64,000 nt of DNA from Trypanosoma brucei (lineage: Eukaryota): NCBI GenBank assembly GCA_000002445.1, contig CM000207.1, forward strand, positions 32,001-96,000. The letters run 5' to 3'. This document shows positions 13,479-50,511 of this stretch, piece by piece. The notes under the pieces were generated by a model that saw only the letters and a list, made by a program, of their open reading frames with translations, was not told the DNA's origin and did no database searches. Position 1 is the stretch's first letter, and every line of letters begins with the position of its first letter. The position numbers and the translations under genes are program-made.

Positions 13479-14191
13479 TGAGTGGTTAAGCCTAATTGCA
13501 CGAGCAACATAGAAGCACTTACAACAGTTAAGATAGTGTAATATTAGTAAGTTTGCGAGTTAGAAAGAACAGGCAGGACAATTATGAATGTTATGATAAA
13601 GGAAAATGAAGGGTTGGGGCGACTCACCCGTAATGTCAAAATAAGAAGTGCACAAGTAAAAATCATTAGAAATAATATAGGAAACGCAATCATGGGGAGG
13701 CTCAACGCCTAGGGAGAATAAAAAAAAGTTGACACGTTGAACGCAGCAAAAGCAAAAGGATATTCTGTTGGGCACGGTGCAAAGGAAGACACTCAAATCA
13801 AAGATAAGAAAGAGCGGACTTTTTTTCTTTCGTGCCTTCGTGGGAGTTTCCCCCACTGGCGCGGCCATCAACCATCACCGTAGAGCCCTGAGATGCTATC
13901 GATCTGGCGACTGTGGTAGAGTCTCCCTTTTTTATTCAGCCTAACACACCCTTTATAATTTTTGTTGTAGTTCCGCAGTTGAACGGAATACAGCAGATGG
14001 GGCGAGAAGCCTCCCACTCCGGACTCTCCCAAAGATGTCAATTAGCAATCCTTTTGTTTTGATTTTTGTTATTCGTTTATTATTCTCTTCTCCCTCTTTC
14101 TGTTTCTGTTGCTTGTTGATTGCATACCCCCTCTGTCTCTGAGGGTGTCTGGACTATTCCTGCGTCCGGTGCTTTTCCTGCTAGCTCCACA

Positions 14192-16318
14192 CTAGGCAAT
14201 AAGGGGGGAAGTTGCAGAAGGGAGAGTGGGTTGTATGACTGTTACCTTAGGTGAGGACTTCACCTGCGGCCGGCTCCGTTCAACCGCAATGAGAAACTGC
14301 GCCAGCCTTTTAGAGAAACATACATCCTGCACACACTCACCTTCTACCGCAAACCTGACATGTAACTCCTTCAAACCGGGGCAGCTCATCAAGTGCAGCG
14401 ACGTTTCTTCGCAGTCGCCGCGTTGGCTGGTAACAGCGCGCTCTACCTTCATACCGTGCATCTTCTTTTGATGTAGGGTGAGGCCAGTTTTGCTAGCACA
14501 CTTCCTTCCGCATGTCGGGCACACCAACATGGATGTGTTTGTATGCGGGGAATCAGTGGCACACAATTTTGTGCTTTTGCTGCATTTAAGCTCGGCTCCC
14601 TCACCTTTGTGGAAAGCCTTACAGTGTCGGATGAGGGAGTCCCTGCAACTGAGCACTTTTTGGCACACACCACACTGCACCTCTCCTCTCCCCCGGACGT
14701 CAACGTTTCCCTCACGGGCACGCTTACGAGGGAATTGCACCACCACAACGGTACCTTCCTCCGTCACTATGCTTTTATGTTTGAATTTTTTGTGTAGTGA
14801 CAGGGAAGAGCGTGTACCGAAGCTCGCCTCACACAGGTCACATTGAAACGGCAGCTTCCGTGTATCCTGAGGAGCTGGCACTGCTGGGACGCTACCATCT
14901 CCTTGCACTGAGTCCTCGTTTTCTTGCCCCCTTTTCACGTGGCAACTACCGTTACCTATGCCATGTATTGTTCTAAGGTGGTGTAATAGTCGGCCTTGCA
15001 CTGCGAATTTGGAGGCACAGATGGTACAATGAAGCAACTGCGGTCTCATCGGGACTCGTGTGTTCGATGGTAGAGGAACGATCGCCACCACTGGAGGGGG
15101 CTCCGGGGGGATATCCACTGCAGGTGTTGCATCGCCGTATTTGATCCTCCGGAGGGCATCAGCTCGCACAAAGCCATGTTTGTTTACCATGTGCGTTACA
15201 GCACTCGAGCGGCATTGGTATGTGGCATCACATTCCGTACATTTTGTCGGTTCGGAGGTTCTCTGAAGAGTGCGTGTCGCAACAGGTGGGGCCTTTTGTA
15301 TTGTTGGTCCTATCGGTGCATGTTTCTGGTTGCACCATCGGCACTGTGGAGGCACACTCGGGTTGATCTTTCGCAACATCCATCCATAGTGTCTTGAAGA
15401 CCCAACCCGAAAGCGTGCCAGTGCCGTTTCTTCTTCCCTCGTCAGTTCTTCTTTATGTTTTGTTGGAAAGTGGTTGCCCGTGATACCAAACCTATGAGTG
15501 TTCTCATGGACTTCTTCCGACCTAAGCACTCGCTTCGCATAAGCAATGATGTTGGGGATCCATGTGTCTCGCAACTGTGGTAAATCTGCGGCCTTTTTGG
15601 CCATTTTATCACAAACCTCATTCCGTTTCACGCTACAATGGCCAAACACAAATTGCAGTCGGATACGCACTTTCCTTCTCTGAACTTGAAGCAGAAGCCT
15701 CCATAGTCGTCTCAGAATTAGCTCTGTTACGGGTACGGGGCCTATCTGCAGTGCTGTTAACATTGACAGCGAGTAAGAGAAGATGGACAACCTGCTCGGT
15801 GTGCTTCTGTATGCCAGAAACCATTTCAGCAGCCTTTGCAGTCCTATCTCTAATGCTACGCATTCCGCTCTGTAACTGCATGAGAGTTCCCCTGCTCCGG
15901 TCTTGGGTGCACAAATCAGCGTGTTGTTTCTATGGAGCATGGCAGCTGCTCCGGACTTCTCACCGAGGGACACGGATCCATCAGTCCACAATTCGTAGTG
16001 CTCTCGTCGCGATGGCTCCTTCCCCCTCCGTGCAAAATGCCGTTCAATCCACTTTTCGTAAGCCTCCCTTTTAACATCGTCAGGGTCATCAGCGCACACA
16101 GGCTTTACCTGCGTGTGAAATAGCGGTCGGCAGCTGTGGCGGAGCGTCGATGTCTCTAGTGGGTGCTCGCGTGGCTCAATGTGGAGGTGGGGGTAGGACC
16201 GCATGATGCGGGAATGTAAGACTCTGACTGGGTGTTTGCTGTGGTATACTTCCTCGGCACTGCGCCGCAAACATCCGCCTCGTGACTCATACATCAGCAT
16301 GAATTTCATACTGCCCAC
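14192..16318 (-). CDS. ingi ORF fragment, RNase H-like plus C2H2 zinc-finger C-terminal region
   Basis: 708-aa ORF. It contains ELWTDGSV...GAAAM (RNase H-like) and repeated C..C...H...H motifs (CTICASKFAVQGRLLHHLRTIH, CDLCEASFGTRSSLSLHKKFKH, CGVCQKVLSCRDSLIRHCKAFH, CPTCGRKCASKTGLTLHQKKMH). Confidence 0.75.
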   Translation of the reverse strand: MGSMKFMLMYESRGGCLRRSAEEVYHSKHPVRVLHSRIMRSYPHLHIEPREHPLETSTLRHSCRPLFHTQVKPVCADDPDDVKREAYEKWIERHFARRGKEPSRREHYELWTDGSVSLGEKSGAAAMLHRNNTLICAPKTGAGELSCSYRAECVALEIGLQRLLKWFLAYRSTPSRLSIFSYSLSMLTALQIGPVPVTELILRRLWRLLLQVQRRKVRIRLQFVFGHCSVKRNEVCDKMAKKAADLPQLRDTWIPNIIAYAKRVLRSEEVHENTHRFGITGNHFPTKHKEELTREEETALARFRVGSSRHYGWMLRKINPSVPPQCRWCNQKHAPIGPTIQKAPPVATRTLQRTSEPTKCTECDATYQCRSSAVTHMVNKHGFVRADALRRIKYGDATPAVDIPPEPPPVVAIVPLPSNTRVPMRPQLLHCTICASKFAVQGRLLHHLRTIHGIGNGSCHVKRGQENEDSVQGDGSVPAVPAPQDTRKLPFQCDLCEASFGTRSSLSLHKKFKHKSIVTEEGTVVVVQFPRKRAREGNVDVRGRGEVQCGVCQKVLSCRDSLIRHCKAFHKGEGAELKCSKSTKLCATDSPHTNTSMLVCPTCGRKCASKTGLTLHQKKMHGMKVERAVTSQRGDCEETSLHLMSCPGLKELHVRFAVEGECVQDVCFSKRLAQFLIAVERSRPQVKSSPKVTVIQPTLPSATSPLIA

Positions 16319-16810
16319 AAGAGTGGCCGTCTTGAGTGGCAGGAGGTTTGCTTCCAGCAGAGAGTCCTCTTTGCGCGTCCCATGCGGTATGCCGGCTATG
16401 ATGCGACTGGCCTTGTGTTGTGCTGCTGCAAGGAGGTCGCGACTTCGTTTCGAAGCGTCTCAGTACCATACCTCACTGCCATACATGGTGTGTGCCTCTA
16501 CGAGTGCTAGATAAAAAGCTCTCAGTACTTGTCGTCTTGGCCCCCATGTAGAAGTTGAGATGGCTGCTATCTGCAGTAGTCGAAAGTCCATCTTGCGTCT
16601 CGTTTCGGCCGCATGTGTTGCCATCCCTTGCAGACACTGGAATGTTACTCCTAGAAGCTTCGGTGTCCTGTCAGCTCCTATTCTTTCGCCGTTCAGTTGT
16701 AATGTAAGGGAGTGGCGCTCTATACACCCGAAGAGTGTGCACTTTGTTTTCGCTACGTTGACATACATGAAGTACTCTTTTGACCACTGTAACACCACGT
16801 TTAGGCCGCA

Positions 16811-48804: not shown

Positions 48805-49425
48805 CTAGTCAGCTTTTAGCCATGCGTACATGGGCTTTCGAAGCCGCGGGCAACTCAGTGCATCTGTGTCCTCTCCAACGATAACGTCGAAAAATATGTG
48901 ATGGTGATCGCTATCGGAAGAATACAGCGATGTCCACGTGTACACTGTACAATTCCTTGACAGTGTCACATCAGGGGTGGACTCCCCATGGTGACGCGCG
49001 TATCTTGTGCACTCACCAGTGTTGCAAACCAGAAACTGGTTGTCAATGCACCACTGTGTGAGGGTTTCACCCTTGGTATTTGGTGGGCTCGCGCGATCCC
49101 ATGCCAACGCGTGTGCGTTAGCGTCTGCACCGATGAGCTGGGCACCGACAGTTGTCAGAAGCGTATCTAGGTCAGTTGCCGTGAAGGTGTGTTTTGGTGG
49201 GATGTATGCCGACGTGACGGTCAGCGCTGTTCCACGTGCAAGGTGAATTGTTGCATGCACTTGTTCAATGCGACCAACAACGGCCATACCGGTCTCGACT
49301 GGTAGGTCCTCCCTCACTAGTGTTGATACACCACCTCCTTTGCAGTTACGAGCTATTCCGTGATGTTGGTAGCCAGCAACGCTAAAGCAAGCCGCCTCTC
49401 CAGGCGTCATCCTTGTCTCGCTCAA
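48805..49425 (-). CDS. ingi (copy 2) ORF fragment, endonuclease domain (N-terminally truncated ORF)
   Basis: 206-aa ORF homologous to 18080..19099. Confidence 0.7.
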   Translation of the reverse strand: MSETRMTPGEAACFSVAGYQHHGIARNCKGGGVSTLVREDLPVETGMAVVGRIEQVHATIHLARGTALTVTSAYIPPKHTFTATDLDTLLTTVGAQLIGADANAHALAWDRASPPNTKGETLTQWCIDNQFLVCNTGECTRYARHHGESTPDVTLSRNCTVYTWTSLYSSDSDHHHIFFDVIVGEDTDALSCPRLRKPMYAWLKAD

Positions 49426-50511
49426 CAGACAAAAGGCGATCCGCTCATCAACAAGGGTTTTGTGGAGTGCTAATCTCTTTCCTTGAGATAGCCCGGCGCA
49501 GTTTCACTGCATCCCGCACAACGACGGGCCGGGATTCTCTTCCACATCACCGGACATCAGAATCTTAGTGCGGATGATACTGCTGATGGCACGCTGGCAC
49601 GTGCCCATGGACTGACAAATGAAAAACGGTGTCCCAGCAAGACGCTGCTGATCCCTGTGCTGTATTATGCCGTAGCAGGAGCAAAGCAGTGTTCCCTACG
49701 AGAGGAATGCTTCTGACTCTTGGCTTTTCCCGATGAGACTGGGTACTGGACCCTGGCACCATGTTGAGGTGGCCGGAATCGCCAGGGTGAAAACAATATA
49801 ATAGAGTTTGTAAAATAACTTTAAGAGTAAGAATACAAATGAAGTGCACGAAACAAAAGAAAGAAGACAAAAAATAGAAACTTTTTAACCTAAATCATAT
49901 ATGAAGTGTGATGGTAATATACGAAGTGAGGAGACGGAACGGATGGTGATTTTTTTAAAAATTCTGTTCAGGTTTTCTGGAAAGACATTAAGACTGTTGA
50001 AAGAGCGAGTGGTCAACACAAAAACGGTCGCTGACCCAAAAAGAATGGCACATATCAATAAAAGAAAGGCGATAACGAAGGAACTGTCAGCCTTAAATTT
50101 CCAAGTGTTAACCTACACTGAAATGCAGTTGCACAGAATGAAGGGCGCAATCAGAACGTCAGTGGTGTAAAAGCGAAATAACAACGTTATATGACTATTT
50201 AGAGTCATGATCCAGTCTGCGTGTCAAAAATGATAGAAGATACAGAACTATATAAATGATATATGTTTTAGATGCAAGTACAGAATGGTACAGATTATAT
50301 AAAGAAAAAAGTTTTGGCATAGCCGAGTTCCTTTTAGGGAGATTATGTGGTGCCATCACCGCAAGATATTTTTCCTTCTATTTTCTCAATAAAATGCCTA
50401 AATAAGAAATAGCAGAAAAACACTAAACTGCATTCTAAATTTATTCGGCGAAGCAGCGGAAACATCAGTAGCAATACCATCATGTTCAACAAACACACTG
50501 AGAGGAAAAAA

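What the first reader, a model, noticed from the sequence alone, without database searches (positions are those of the whole stretch)
13819..49787. Two near-identical degenerate ingi elements in direct orientation, about 30.7 kb apart, share the same ORF break points and bracket a block of 8 VSG cassettes
ingi copy 1 (13819-19062) and copy 2 (44542-49787) are both on the - strand. Their ORF fragments are about 98% identical at the protein level. They are broken at the same places: EN|RT (a 79-nt gap at 18001-18080 and at 48726-48805), RT|112-aa piece, and 112-aa piece|RNase H piece (an identical 142-nt overlap). They therefore derive from one already-degenerate template, by gene conversion or segmental duplication, or by trans-mobilisation of a defective subfamily. 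They are not two independent insertions of an autonomous element. Direct repeats of 5.2 kb at this spacing are substrates for deletion or duplication of the intervening block of 8 VSGs (20253-43330). Each ingi sits between a 70-bp repeat (13410, 43595) and the next VSG. The VSGs immediately past each ingi 5' end (20253 and 50512) are the two least damaged VSGs in the window. With n=2 this may be coincidence.
Basis: seen in the sequence. Interest (0 to 1): 0.55.

Follow-up and report, generated by a model that had tools for sequence, protein, structure and literature searches.

The report
Two sister copies of a dead ingi retrotransposon
Two already-catalogued, non-functional ingi retrotransposons in a Trypanosoma brucei TREU927 chromosome 9 VSG array are old sister copies of one element that was already dead when it was copied, which is ordinary for this genome.

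Summary
The window is T. b. brucei TREU927 chromosome 9 (NC_007282), about 32,001-96,000. Both ingi copies are already listed in a public catalogue.

Confirmed:
- Two full-length ingi lie on the minus strand, at 13820-19062 and 44542-49787.
- They are 97.9% identical in DNA (111 substitutions, 4 indel events).
- Similarity stops exactly at the element ends, so this is not a segmental duplication.
- Eight VSG cassettes lie between them.

Corrected:
- The ORF "breaks" are in-frame nonsense codons, not gaps or overlaps.
- Only two are shared: W325* and W865*.
- The RT|112-aa break has a different cause in each copy: Q748* in copy 1, a 1-nt deletion at codon 745 in copy 2.
- Each copy also carries private lesions.

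Against 9 other ingi DNA copies and 6 further ORF fragments (T. b. equiperdum and gambiense):
- The pair shares 62 unique substitutions with a neutral pattern, so the common ancestor was already dead.
- None of the 45 diagnostic amino-acid states occurs in any other copy.
- There is no unusually long identical tract, so no sign of recent gene conversion.

Neither copy has the 12-bp target-site duplication or the G-rich target motif. The copying route is therefore unresolved: mobilisation in trans or whole-element recombination.

Deletion or duplication of the VSG block by repeat recombination is plausible but untested. Interest is low.

The parts
13820..19062 (-). ingi copy 1: full length and non-functional. 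The 5' end reads CTCA instead of CCCT, and the 3' tail is GAAAGAAAAAAA, lacking the usual templated TTYC. It is catalogued as NC_007282 45829-51058.
44542..49787 (-). ingi copy 2: full length and non-functional, with a canonical CCCTGGCG 5' end and the tail AGAAAATTTAAAAAAAA. It is catalogued as NC_007282 76542-81787, 'Complete INGI'.
18080..18082 (-). Shared nonsense codon 325 (TGG>TAG) in copy 1.
48805..48807 (-). Shared nonsense codon 325 (TGG>TAG) in copy 2.
16460..16462 (-). Shared nonsense codon 865 (TGG>TGA) in copy 1.
47186..47188 (-). Shared nonsense codon 865 (TGG>TGA) in copy 2.
16811..16813 (-). Nonsense codon 748 (CAA>TAA), private to copy 1. It causes the RT|112-aa break in copy 1 only.
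14192..14194 (-). Nonsense codon 1620 (GAG>TAG), private to copy 1.
47546..47548 (-). Site of a 1-nt deletion private to copy 2 (codon 745; the A at 16821 in copy 1 is missing). It causes the RT|112-aa break in copy 2.
46459..46461 (-). Site of a 1-nt deletion private to copy 2 (equivalent to 15733 in copy 1).
45063..45065 (-). Site of a 2-nt deletion private to copy 2 (equivalent to 14335-14336 in copy 1).
49696..49698 (-). Nonsense codon 28 (TGG>TAG), private to copy 2.
49504..49506 (-). Nonsense codon 92 (TGG>TGA), private to copy 2.
49697..49777 (-). A cluster of 12 substitutions private to copy 2, in element positions 11-91 (the conserved 5' signature / Pr77 region). About 0.8 would be expected.
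13400..13480 (+). A 70-bp repeat unit about 340 nt from the 3' end of copy 1.
43590..43745 (+). Two degenerate 70-bp repeat units about 800 nt from the 3' end of copy 2.
20253..43330 (+). The block of eight VSG genes and pseudogenes between the two ingi. The first, 20253-21779, is 100% identical to a TREU927 'VSG, atypical' protein.

Best explanation
Both elements are ordinary, dead Tbingi non-LTR retrotransposons inserted in the 70-bp-repeat-to-VSG spacers of a TREU927 chromosome 9 VSG array. They are sister copies.

Shown:
- One ingi lost function (W325*, W865*) and accumulated about 1.2% neutral substitutions.
- It was then copied as a whole element, and only the element.
- The two copies have since diverged by 2.05% and picked up separate additional lesions.

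Inferred:
- The copying step was most likely retrotransposition of the dead element's RNA using proteins supplied by active ingi. This is the established route for the non-coding partner element RIME.
- The insertion junctions were non-canonical or were later disturbed.

Generic inference, not a locus-specific finding:
- As 5.2-kb direct repeats the pair could mediate deletion or duplication of the eight VSGs between them.
For: - Identity: 97.86% over 5236 nt.
- Similarity ends at element position 1-5 on the 5' side and at the A-rich tail on the 3' side. The flanks share only generic VSG 3'-end and 70-bp-repeat similarity.
- The copies are colinear with an intact 1656-aa ingi ORF that carries endonuclease, RT and RNase H domains.
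- In an 11-way alignment the pair differs by 2.05%, and each copy differs from the 9 other copies by 3.75-7.3%.
- 62 substitutions and both nonsense codons are unique to the pair. Every other copy has its own private stops.
- The 62 unique shared substitutions are 10 synonymous, 44 non-synonymous and 2 nonsense, so they accumulated in a dead copy. The 48 shared sites also seen in other copies are 23 synonymous to 22 non-synonymous, consistent with inherited variation of the active lineage.
- Shared derived sites run from element position 104 to about 5211 of about 5250, so the whole element was copied.
- Outside the 5' extremity the private changes are balanced, about 46 in each copy. The longest identical run is 278 nt against 237 expected.
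- None of the 45 diagnostic amino-acid states occurs in 15 other ingi ORF fragments.
- Mobilisation of RIME in trans by ingi, the 12-bp target-site duplication and the target signature are described in PMC3820030.
- Removing each ingi leaves a 70-bp-repeat-to-VSG spacer of about 1.5 kb, in line with other cassettes in the window.
Against: - Neither copy has a 12-bp target-site duplication. Among control copies, L005 and L008 have 12/12 and L002 11/12.
- Both 5' flanks lack the G-rich core of the Tbingi target signature. They have 1 and 0 G in motif positions 11-20. The mean over 39 other TREU927 loci is 3.6, and only 2 of 39 have one G or none.
- A daughter landing 30.7 kb from its sister, in the same orientation and the same array, is not expected from dispersed retrotransposition. 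It would be expected from local recombination.
- The 5' patch of copy 2 (12 private changes in 91 nt) and the atypical ends of copy 1 could be the edges of a conversion tract.
- No other TREU927 ingi sequence could be examined, so the size of this dead lineage is unknown.
Confidence: 0.5

Rival explanations
1. Whole-element ectopic gene conversion. Two unrelated ingi were already resident 30 kb apart. One was overwritten almost end to end by the other, or both by a third dead copy. Only the extreme ends remain from the original residents.
For: - The copies are close together, in the same orientation and in the same array.
- Copy 2 has a 5' patch of 12 private changes in positions 11-91, ending just before the first shared derived site at position 104.
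- Copy 1 has 4 private changes in positions 2-45 and a 3' tail lacking the templated TTYC.
- Gene conversion is the dominant recombination mode in VSG arrays (general knowledge; PMC2854126 notes that ingi/RIME recombine).
Against: - The tract would have to cover at least positions 104-5211 of about 5250, with both ends falling in the last 2% of the homology.
- Resident elements inserted by the normal route should still have a target-site duplication and target signature, and neither copy does.
- There are no patchy identity tracts.
- The event would be old, given 2.05% divergence.
Confidence: 0.3
2. The two copies are just two members of a larger, widespread defective ingi subfamily. Nothing would then be specific to this locus or this pair.
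For: - A full-length dead ingi keeps both RIME-like ends, so it should be mobilisable in trans like RIME (PMC3820030).
- No other TREU927 copy could be sequenced here.
- 48 of the 110 sites shared by the pair also occur in some other copies.
Against: - 0 of 9 DNA copies and 0 of 15 ORF fragments from T. b. equiperdum and gambiense carry W325*, W865* or any of the 45 diagnostic residues.
- With 15 independent copies, a subfamily above about 18% frequency would probably have been sampled.
- That sample is biased toward copies with long annotated ORFs and comes from other subspecies.
Confidence: 0.25
3. A segmental duplication of a block containing the ingi, with the flanks since replaced.
For: The TREU927 catalogue shows that other ingi do occur with identical 100-nt 5' flanks at two loci. 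Examples are chr 9 203525 with chr 11 4656991, and chr 9 2748364 with 2928951. Duplications that carry an ingi therefore happen in this genome.
Against: - The flanks of copies 1 and 2 show no similarity from the first base outside the element on either side, apart from generic VSG 3'-end and 70-bp-repeat motifs hundreds of bases away.
- No other long self-similarity exists in the window.
- Both flanks on both sides would have had to be replaced exactly up to the element boundary.
Confidence: 0.03
4. Two independent insertions of an active element that acquired the same lesions by chance.
For: TGG>TAG/TGA changes are frequent G>A transitions, and private stops of this type are seen in other copies.
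Against: Two identical nonsense codons, 62 further unique shared substitutions and shared small indels cannot be convergent.
Confidence: 0.01

Closest known systems
Tbingi (ingi4 subclade of the ingi/L1Tc clade of trypanosomatid non-LTR retrotransposons), degenerate genomic copies
   Same: - Length about 5.25 kb, the conserved 5' signature CCCTGGCGATGCC..., and an A-rich 3' tail.
- A single frame encoding endonuclease, RT and RNase H.
- 95.6-95.9% DNA identity to an intact T. b. equiperdum copy.
- Location in a VSG array. Both copies are listed in the TREU927 ingi catalogue (PMC4660242 supplement).
   Different: - The ORF is broken by 4 nonsense codons in copy 1, and by 4 nonsense codons plus 3 frameshifts in copy 2.
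- There is no 12-bp target-site duplication, and the 5' flanks lack the G-rich target core.
The TbRIME/Tbingi non-autonomous/autonomous pair (mobilisation in trans)
   Same: A dead full-length ingi keeps the same two ends that make up RIME. It would depend on proteins from active ingi, as RIME does (PMC3820030).
   Different: RIME insertions are reported with 12-bp target-site duplications and the target signature, and these two copies have neither. Mobilisation of this lineage is inferred, not shown.
Rearrangements mediated by ingi/RIME recombination in T. brucei
   Same: These are long direct repeats within one chromosome arm. Rearrangements between T. b. brucei and T. b. gambiense attributed to ingi/RIME are reported (PMC2854126).
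   Different: No rearrangement product involving this pair was observed. The window shows only the substrate.

Membership tests
Tbingi non-LTR retrotransposon | An element of about 5.2 kb with the conserved 76-79-bp 5' signature and RIME-type ends. | tested here: met
   Both copies align end to end with an intact ingi (reference positions 17/23 to 5256/5258). The 5' signature is visible. It is mutated in copy 2 (12 changes) and at the first 4 nt of copy 1.
Tbingi non-LTR retrotransposon | One long ORF encoding endonuclease, reverse transcriptase and RNase H. | tested here: met
   tblastn of the intact 1656-aa protein covers residues 1-1655 in copy 1 (92.6% identity). In copy 2 it covers them in four frame-shifted pieces. 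The domains of the reference protein are given. The ORF is interrupted in both copies.
Tbingi non-LTR retrotransposon | An A-rich 3' tail. | tested here: met
   The tails are AAGAAAAAAA (copy 1) and AGAAAATTTAAAAAAAA (copy 2). The tail of copy 1 lacks the usual TTYC.
Tbingi non-LTR retrotransposon | A 12-bp target-site duplication. | tested here: not met
   The best matches are 8/12 at offset 6,6 (copy 1) and 6/12 (copy 2), within the null range of 5-8. Controls L005 and L008 give 12/12 and L002 11/12.
Tbingi non-LTR retrotransposon | The upstream target signature AxxxxxxxTxxxGTxGGxTxxx^xTxTxxTxxxxx (PMC3820030). | tested here: inconclusive
   - Scores are 5/10 (core 2/5) for copy 1 and 6/10 (core 1/5) for copy 2.
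- Across 46 catalogued TREU927 flanks the median is 6/10.
- The G count in the core is 1 and 0, against a mean of 3.6; only 2 of 39 other loci have one G or none.
- The pair is in the low tail, but the motif is degenerate.
Autonomous (potentially active) ingi | An uninterrupted ORF of about 1656 codons. | tested here: not met
   Copy 1 has 4 in-frame stops. Copy 2 has 4 stops and 3 frameshifting deletions.
Segmental duplication | Similarity continues beyond the repeat unit into the flanking unique sequence. | tested here: not met
   Global and sensitive local alignments of 1.5 kb on each side show no similarity adjoining the element.
Recent gene conversion between repeats | Long identical tracts or a mosaic of high- and low-identity segments. 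| tested here: not met
   The longest identical run is 278 nt, against 237 expected (95th percentile 342). Differences are spread across all 250-nt bins apart from the 5' extremity.
Subtelomeric VSG array cassette structure | 70-bp repeat units upstream of VSG ORFs, all on one strand. | tested here: met
   15 matches to the 70-bp repeat core, all on the + strand, against 0.44 expected. VSG_B, Trypan_glycop and Trypan_glycop_C domains are found in 8 of the 10 + strand ORFs tested.

The most novel reading that the evidence does not exclude
ingi copies in VSG arrays may spread by a non-canonical route rather than by normal endonuclease-primed insertion. One possibility is endonuclease-independent capture of ingi cDNA at subtelomeric breaks. 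Another is recombination that uses the element as portable homology.

That would explain three things together: the missing target-site duplications, the missing G-rich target motif, and the patchwork 5' ends. It would also explain why two sisters of a dead lineage sit 30 kb apart bracketing a multi-VSG block.
Probability: 0.1. Interest if true: 0.45.

Novelty: already known. Interest (0 to 1): 0.13.

Why it matters
It matters little beyond bookkeeping.
- It shows that at least one dead ingi lineage was copied as a whole element after losing function. This fits the accepted view that ingi-family elements can be mobilised in trans or recombined.
- The only mildly useful lead is that both copies lack the normal insertion hallmarks. 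That would be worth testing across all array-resident ingi.
- The potential for deletion or duplication of eight VSGs applies to any pair of direct repeats. Such pairs recur along this array: other chr 9 ingi lie at 203.5, 241 and 291 kb.

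Tried and rejected
- Exact-sequence look-ups of the window's VSG and ingi ORF pieces found nothing, so the source locus and copies in other strains could not be fetched that way.
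- A homology search with the 508-aa VSG identified TREU927. The next best hit was only 45% identical, so no orthologous array in another strain was reachable for a structural-variant test.
- I tried to reconstruct the empty site of copy 1 from a paralogous VSG spacer (56476-57305, 79% identical). The similarity starts 44 nt from the junction and does not span it.
- A cross-wise target-site-duplication test (copy 1 upstream against copy 2 downstream, and the reverse) gave 8/12 and 7/12, within the null range.
- A T-rich similarity of about 15 nt between the two flanks of copy 1 scored 11 against a shuffle mean of 8.3, and 49 of 500 shuffles reached it. I treat it as chance.
- An Rfam scan of the whole window found nothing at gathering thresholds.
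- Bringaud et al. 2004 (PubMed 14694076) is not held.
- A second cluster listing returned the same 15 members, so no TREU927 ingi proteins were obtained.

Full report
**Source and setting**

The 508-aa VSG at 20253-21779 is 100% identical to a T. b. brucei TREU927 protein, 'VSG, atypical'. The 100-nt 5' flanks of both ingi copies are found verbatim in a published TREU927 ingi/RIME catalogue. There they are listed as NC_007282 (chromosome 9) 45829-51058 and 76542-81787, both on the minus strand (PMC4660242 supplement). The window is therefore chromosome 9, about 32,001-96,000, in a VSG array.

The array structure is confirmed. There are 15 matches to the 70-bp-repeat core, all on the + strand, against 0.44 expected. 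The + strand ORFs carry VSG domains.

**Checking the observation**

A self-comparison of the window gives one long repeat, 13823-19058 against 44553-49783. It is 97.86% identical over 5236 nt. With 200-nt flanks included, similarity begins at the canonical ingi 5' end and ends at the A-rich tail. There are 111 substitutions and 4 indel events in between, and the flanks are unrelated. A sensitive search of 1.5 kb on each side finds only generic VSG 3'-end and 70-bp-repeat similarity, hundreds of bases from the elements. The element limits are 13820-19062 and 44542-49787.

**What the ORF breaks really are**

I fetched an intact ingi from T. b. equiperdum (L002, a 1656-aa ORF with endonuclease, RT and RNase H domains) and aligned it to both copies.

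- Relative to the intact ingi, copy 1 has no frameshifting indel upstream of the last three codons of the ORF. Its four ORF pieces are all in one frame.
- Codon-by-codon comparison gives the lesions in the table below.

| Lesion | Copy 1 | Copy 2 |
|---|---|---|
| W325* (TGG>TAG) | yes, shared | yes, shared |
| W865* (TGG>TGA) | yes, shared | yes, shared |
| Q748* | private | absent |
| E1620* | private | absent |
| W28* | absent | private |
| W92* | absent | private |
| 1-nt deletion at codon 745 | absent | private |
| 1-nt deletion near 46460 | absent | private |
| 2-nt deletion near 45064 | absent | private |

The RT|112-aa break, which looked shared, therefore has a different cause in each copy. 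Protein identity in the reference frame is 93.8% (EN), 98.6% (RT), 99.1% (112-aa piece) and 95.8% (C-terminal part).

**Are the shared lesions specific to this pair?**

I collected nine other ingi DNA copies, eight from T. b. equiperdum and one from T. b. gambiense (L001-L009).

- In the 11-way alignment the pair differs by 2.05%. Each copy differs from the others by 3.75-7.3%. The others differ among themselves by 1.95-6.8%.
- 62 substitutions and both nonsense codons are unique to the pair. Another 48 shared sites also occur in some other copies. Copy 1 has 35 (+15) private changes and copy 2 has 39 (+19). Every other copy has its own private stops and none at codons 325 or 865.
- The 62 unique shared changes are 10 synonymous, 44 non-synonymous and 2 nonsense. 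Neutral expectation is 28.5% synonymous, so they accumulated without selection, in a dead element.
- The 48 sites shared with other copies are 23 synonymous to 22 non-synonymous, as expected for variation inherited from active lineages.
- Six further ORF fragments from other loci extend the sample to 15 proteins. None carries any of the 45 diagnostic residues.
- The caveat is that none of these comparison copies is from TREU927 itself.

**How the copy was made**

- Shared derived sites run from element position 104 to about 5211 of about 5250, so the whole element was copied.
- The differences are spread evenly. The longest identical run is 278 nt against 237 expected, so there is no sign of recent or patchy conversion.
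- The divergence of 2.05% is about half the brucei-gambiense non-coding divergence of 4.6% (PMC2854126), so the event is old.
- Segmental duplication is excluded by the unrelated flanks.

Two routes remain: mobilisation of a dead element's RNA in trans, as is accepted for RIME (PMC3820030), or whole-element ectopic conversion between two resident copies.

Against a textbook insertion:
- Neither copy has a 12-bp target-site duplication. Controls L005 and L008 are 12/12 and L002 is 11/12. L001, L003 and L009 are also degraded.
- Both 5' flanks are at the extreme low end for the G-rich core of the published Tbingi target signature. They have 1 and 0 G, against a mean of 3.6, and only 2 of 39 other TREU927 loci have one G or none.

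Features that could mark conversion-tract edges, or irregular 5' joining:
- Copy 2 has 12 private changes in element positions 11-91 (Poisson P about 1e-10).
- Copy 1 has 4 private changes in positions 2-45 and an atypical tail.

Against conversion:
- Both tract ends would have to fall in the outer 2% of the element.
- Resident elements should have kept their insertion hallmarks.

I lean to mobilisation in trans (about 0.45) over conversion (about 0.3). The question is not settled.

- Each ingi does lie between a 70-bp repeat and the next VSG. The distances differ, about 340 and 800 nt, and the sites are not homologous.
- Removing each ingi leaves a spacer of about 1.5 kb, typical of the window.
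- The 'two least damaged VSGs' remark does not hold. The ORF at 11485-13038 is 517 aa, with a full N-terminal domain and a weaker, partial match to the C-terminal domain.
- Deletion or duplication of the eight-VSG block is a reasonable generic inference. ingi/RIME-mediated rearrangements are already reported (PMC2854126). It could not be tested, because no orthologous array from another strain was reachable.
- Other ingi occur every few tens of kb along the same array, so such pairs are routine.

**Verdict**

This is a real but ordinary feature: two already-catalogued dead ingi copies that are sisters from a dead progenitor. The only lead worth following is the absence of normal insertion hallmarks at both copies.

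Noticed in passing
window 49697-49777 (-): Copy 2 has 12 private substitutions in element positions 11-91, the conserved 5' signature / Pr77 promoter region. About 0.8 would be expected from its rate elsewhere. The cluster ends just before the first site shared with copy 1 (position 104).
   Followed up: partly
window 19059-19062 and 13820-13831 (-): Copy 1 starts CTCAGGCG instead of CCCTGGCG. Its tail reads GAAAGAAAAAAA and lacks the TTYC found in every other copy examined.
   Followed up: partly
window 19107-19836 vs 56476-57305 (+): The spacer upstream of the VSG at 20253 is 76-80% identical to the spacer upstream of the VSG at 57841. This similarity begins 44 nt from the 5' junction of copy 1.
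   Followed up: partly
L001, L003, L009 (T. b. equiperdum loci): Three of the six control ingi with intact 5' ends keep a good upstream target signature (7-8/10). Their target-site duplications are nevertheless degraded or absent (7-8/12). This suggests that flank exchange or 3'-flank turnover is common for ingi outside the chromosome cores.
   Followed up: partly
outside the window: NC_007282 203525 / NT_165288 4656991; NC_007282 241094 / NT_165288 5232352; NC_007282 3036904 / NT_165288 5202764; NC_007282 2748364 / 2928951: In the TREU927 catalogue several full-length ingi share identical or near-identical 100-nt 5' flanks at two loci, on chr 9 and chr 11 or both on chr 9. These look like true segmental duplications that carry an ingi, unlike the pair studied here. 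Some duplicate rows in that table may be coordinate artefacts.
   Followed up: no
both ingi copies, whole length: The 61 base substitutions among the 62 changes unique to the pair are strongly biased from G/C to A/T (C>A 15, G>A 14, C>T 11, G>T 8). All four shared or private TGG codon losses are G>A changes.
   Followed up: no
window 59325-59399, 9903-9931, 67-349 (+): There is a perfect (ATA)25 tract directly before a 70-bp-repeat core at 59403, and a perfect (TA)14.5 tract at 9903. A run of 3-4 well-preserved 70-bp repeat units lies at the left end of the window.
   Followed up: no
window 11485-13038 (+) and 11472-12086 (-): A 517-aa VSG ORF with a full VSG_B domain but only a weak, partial C-terminal domain lies next to the 3' side of copy 1. 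A 204-aa antisense ORF overlaps its start.
   Followed up: no
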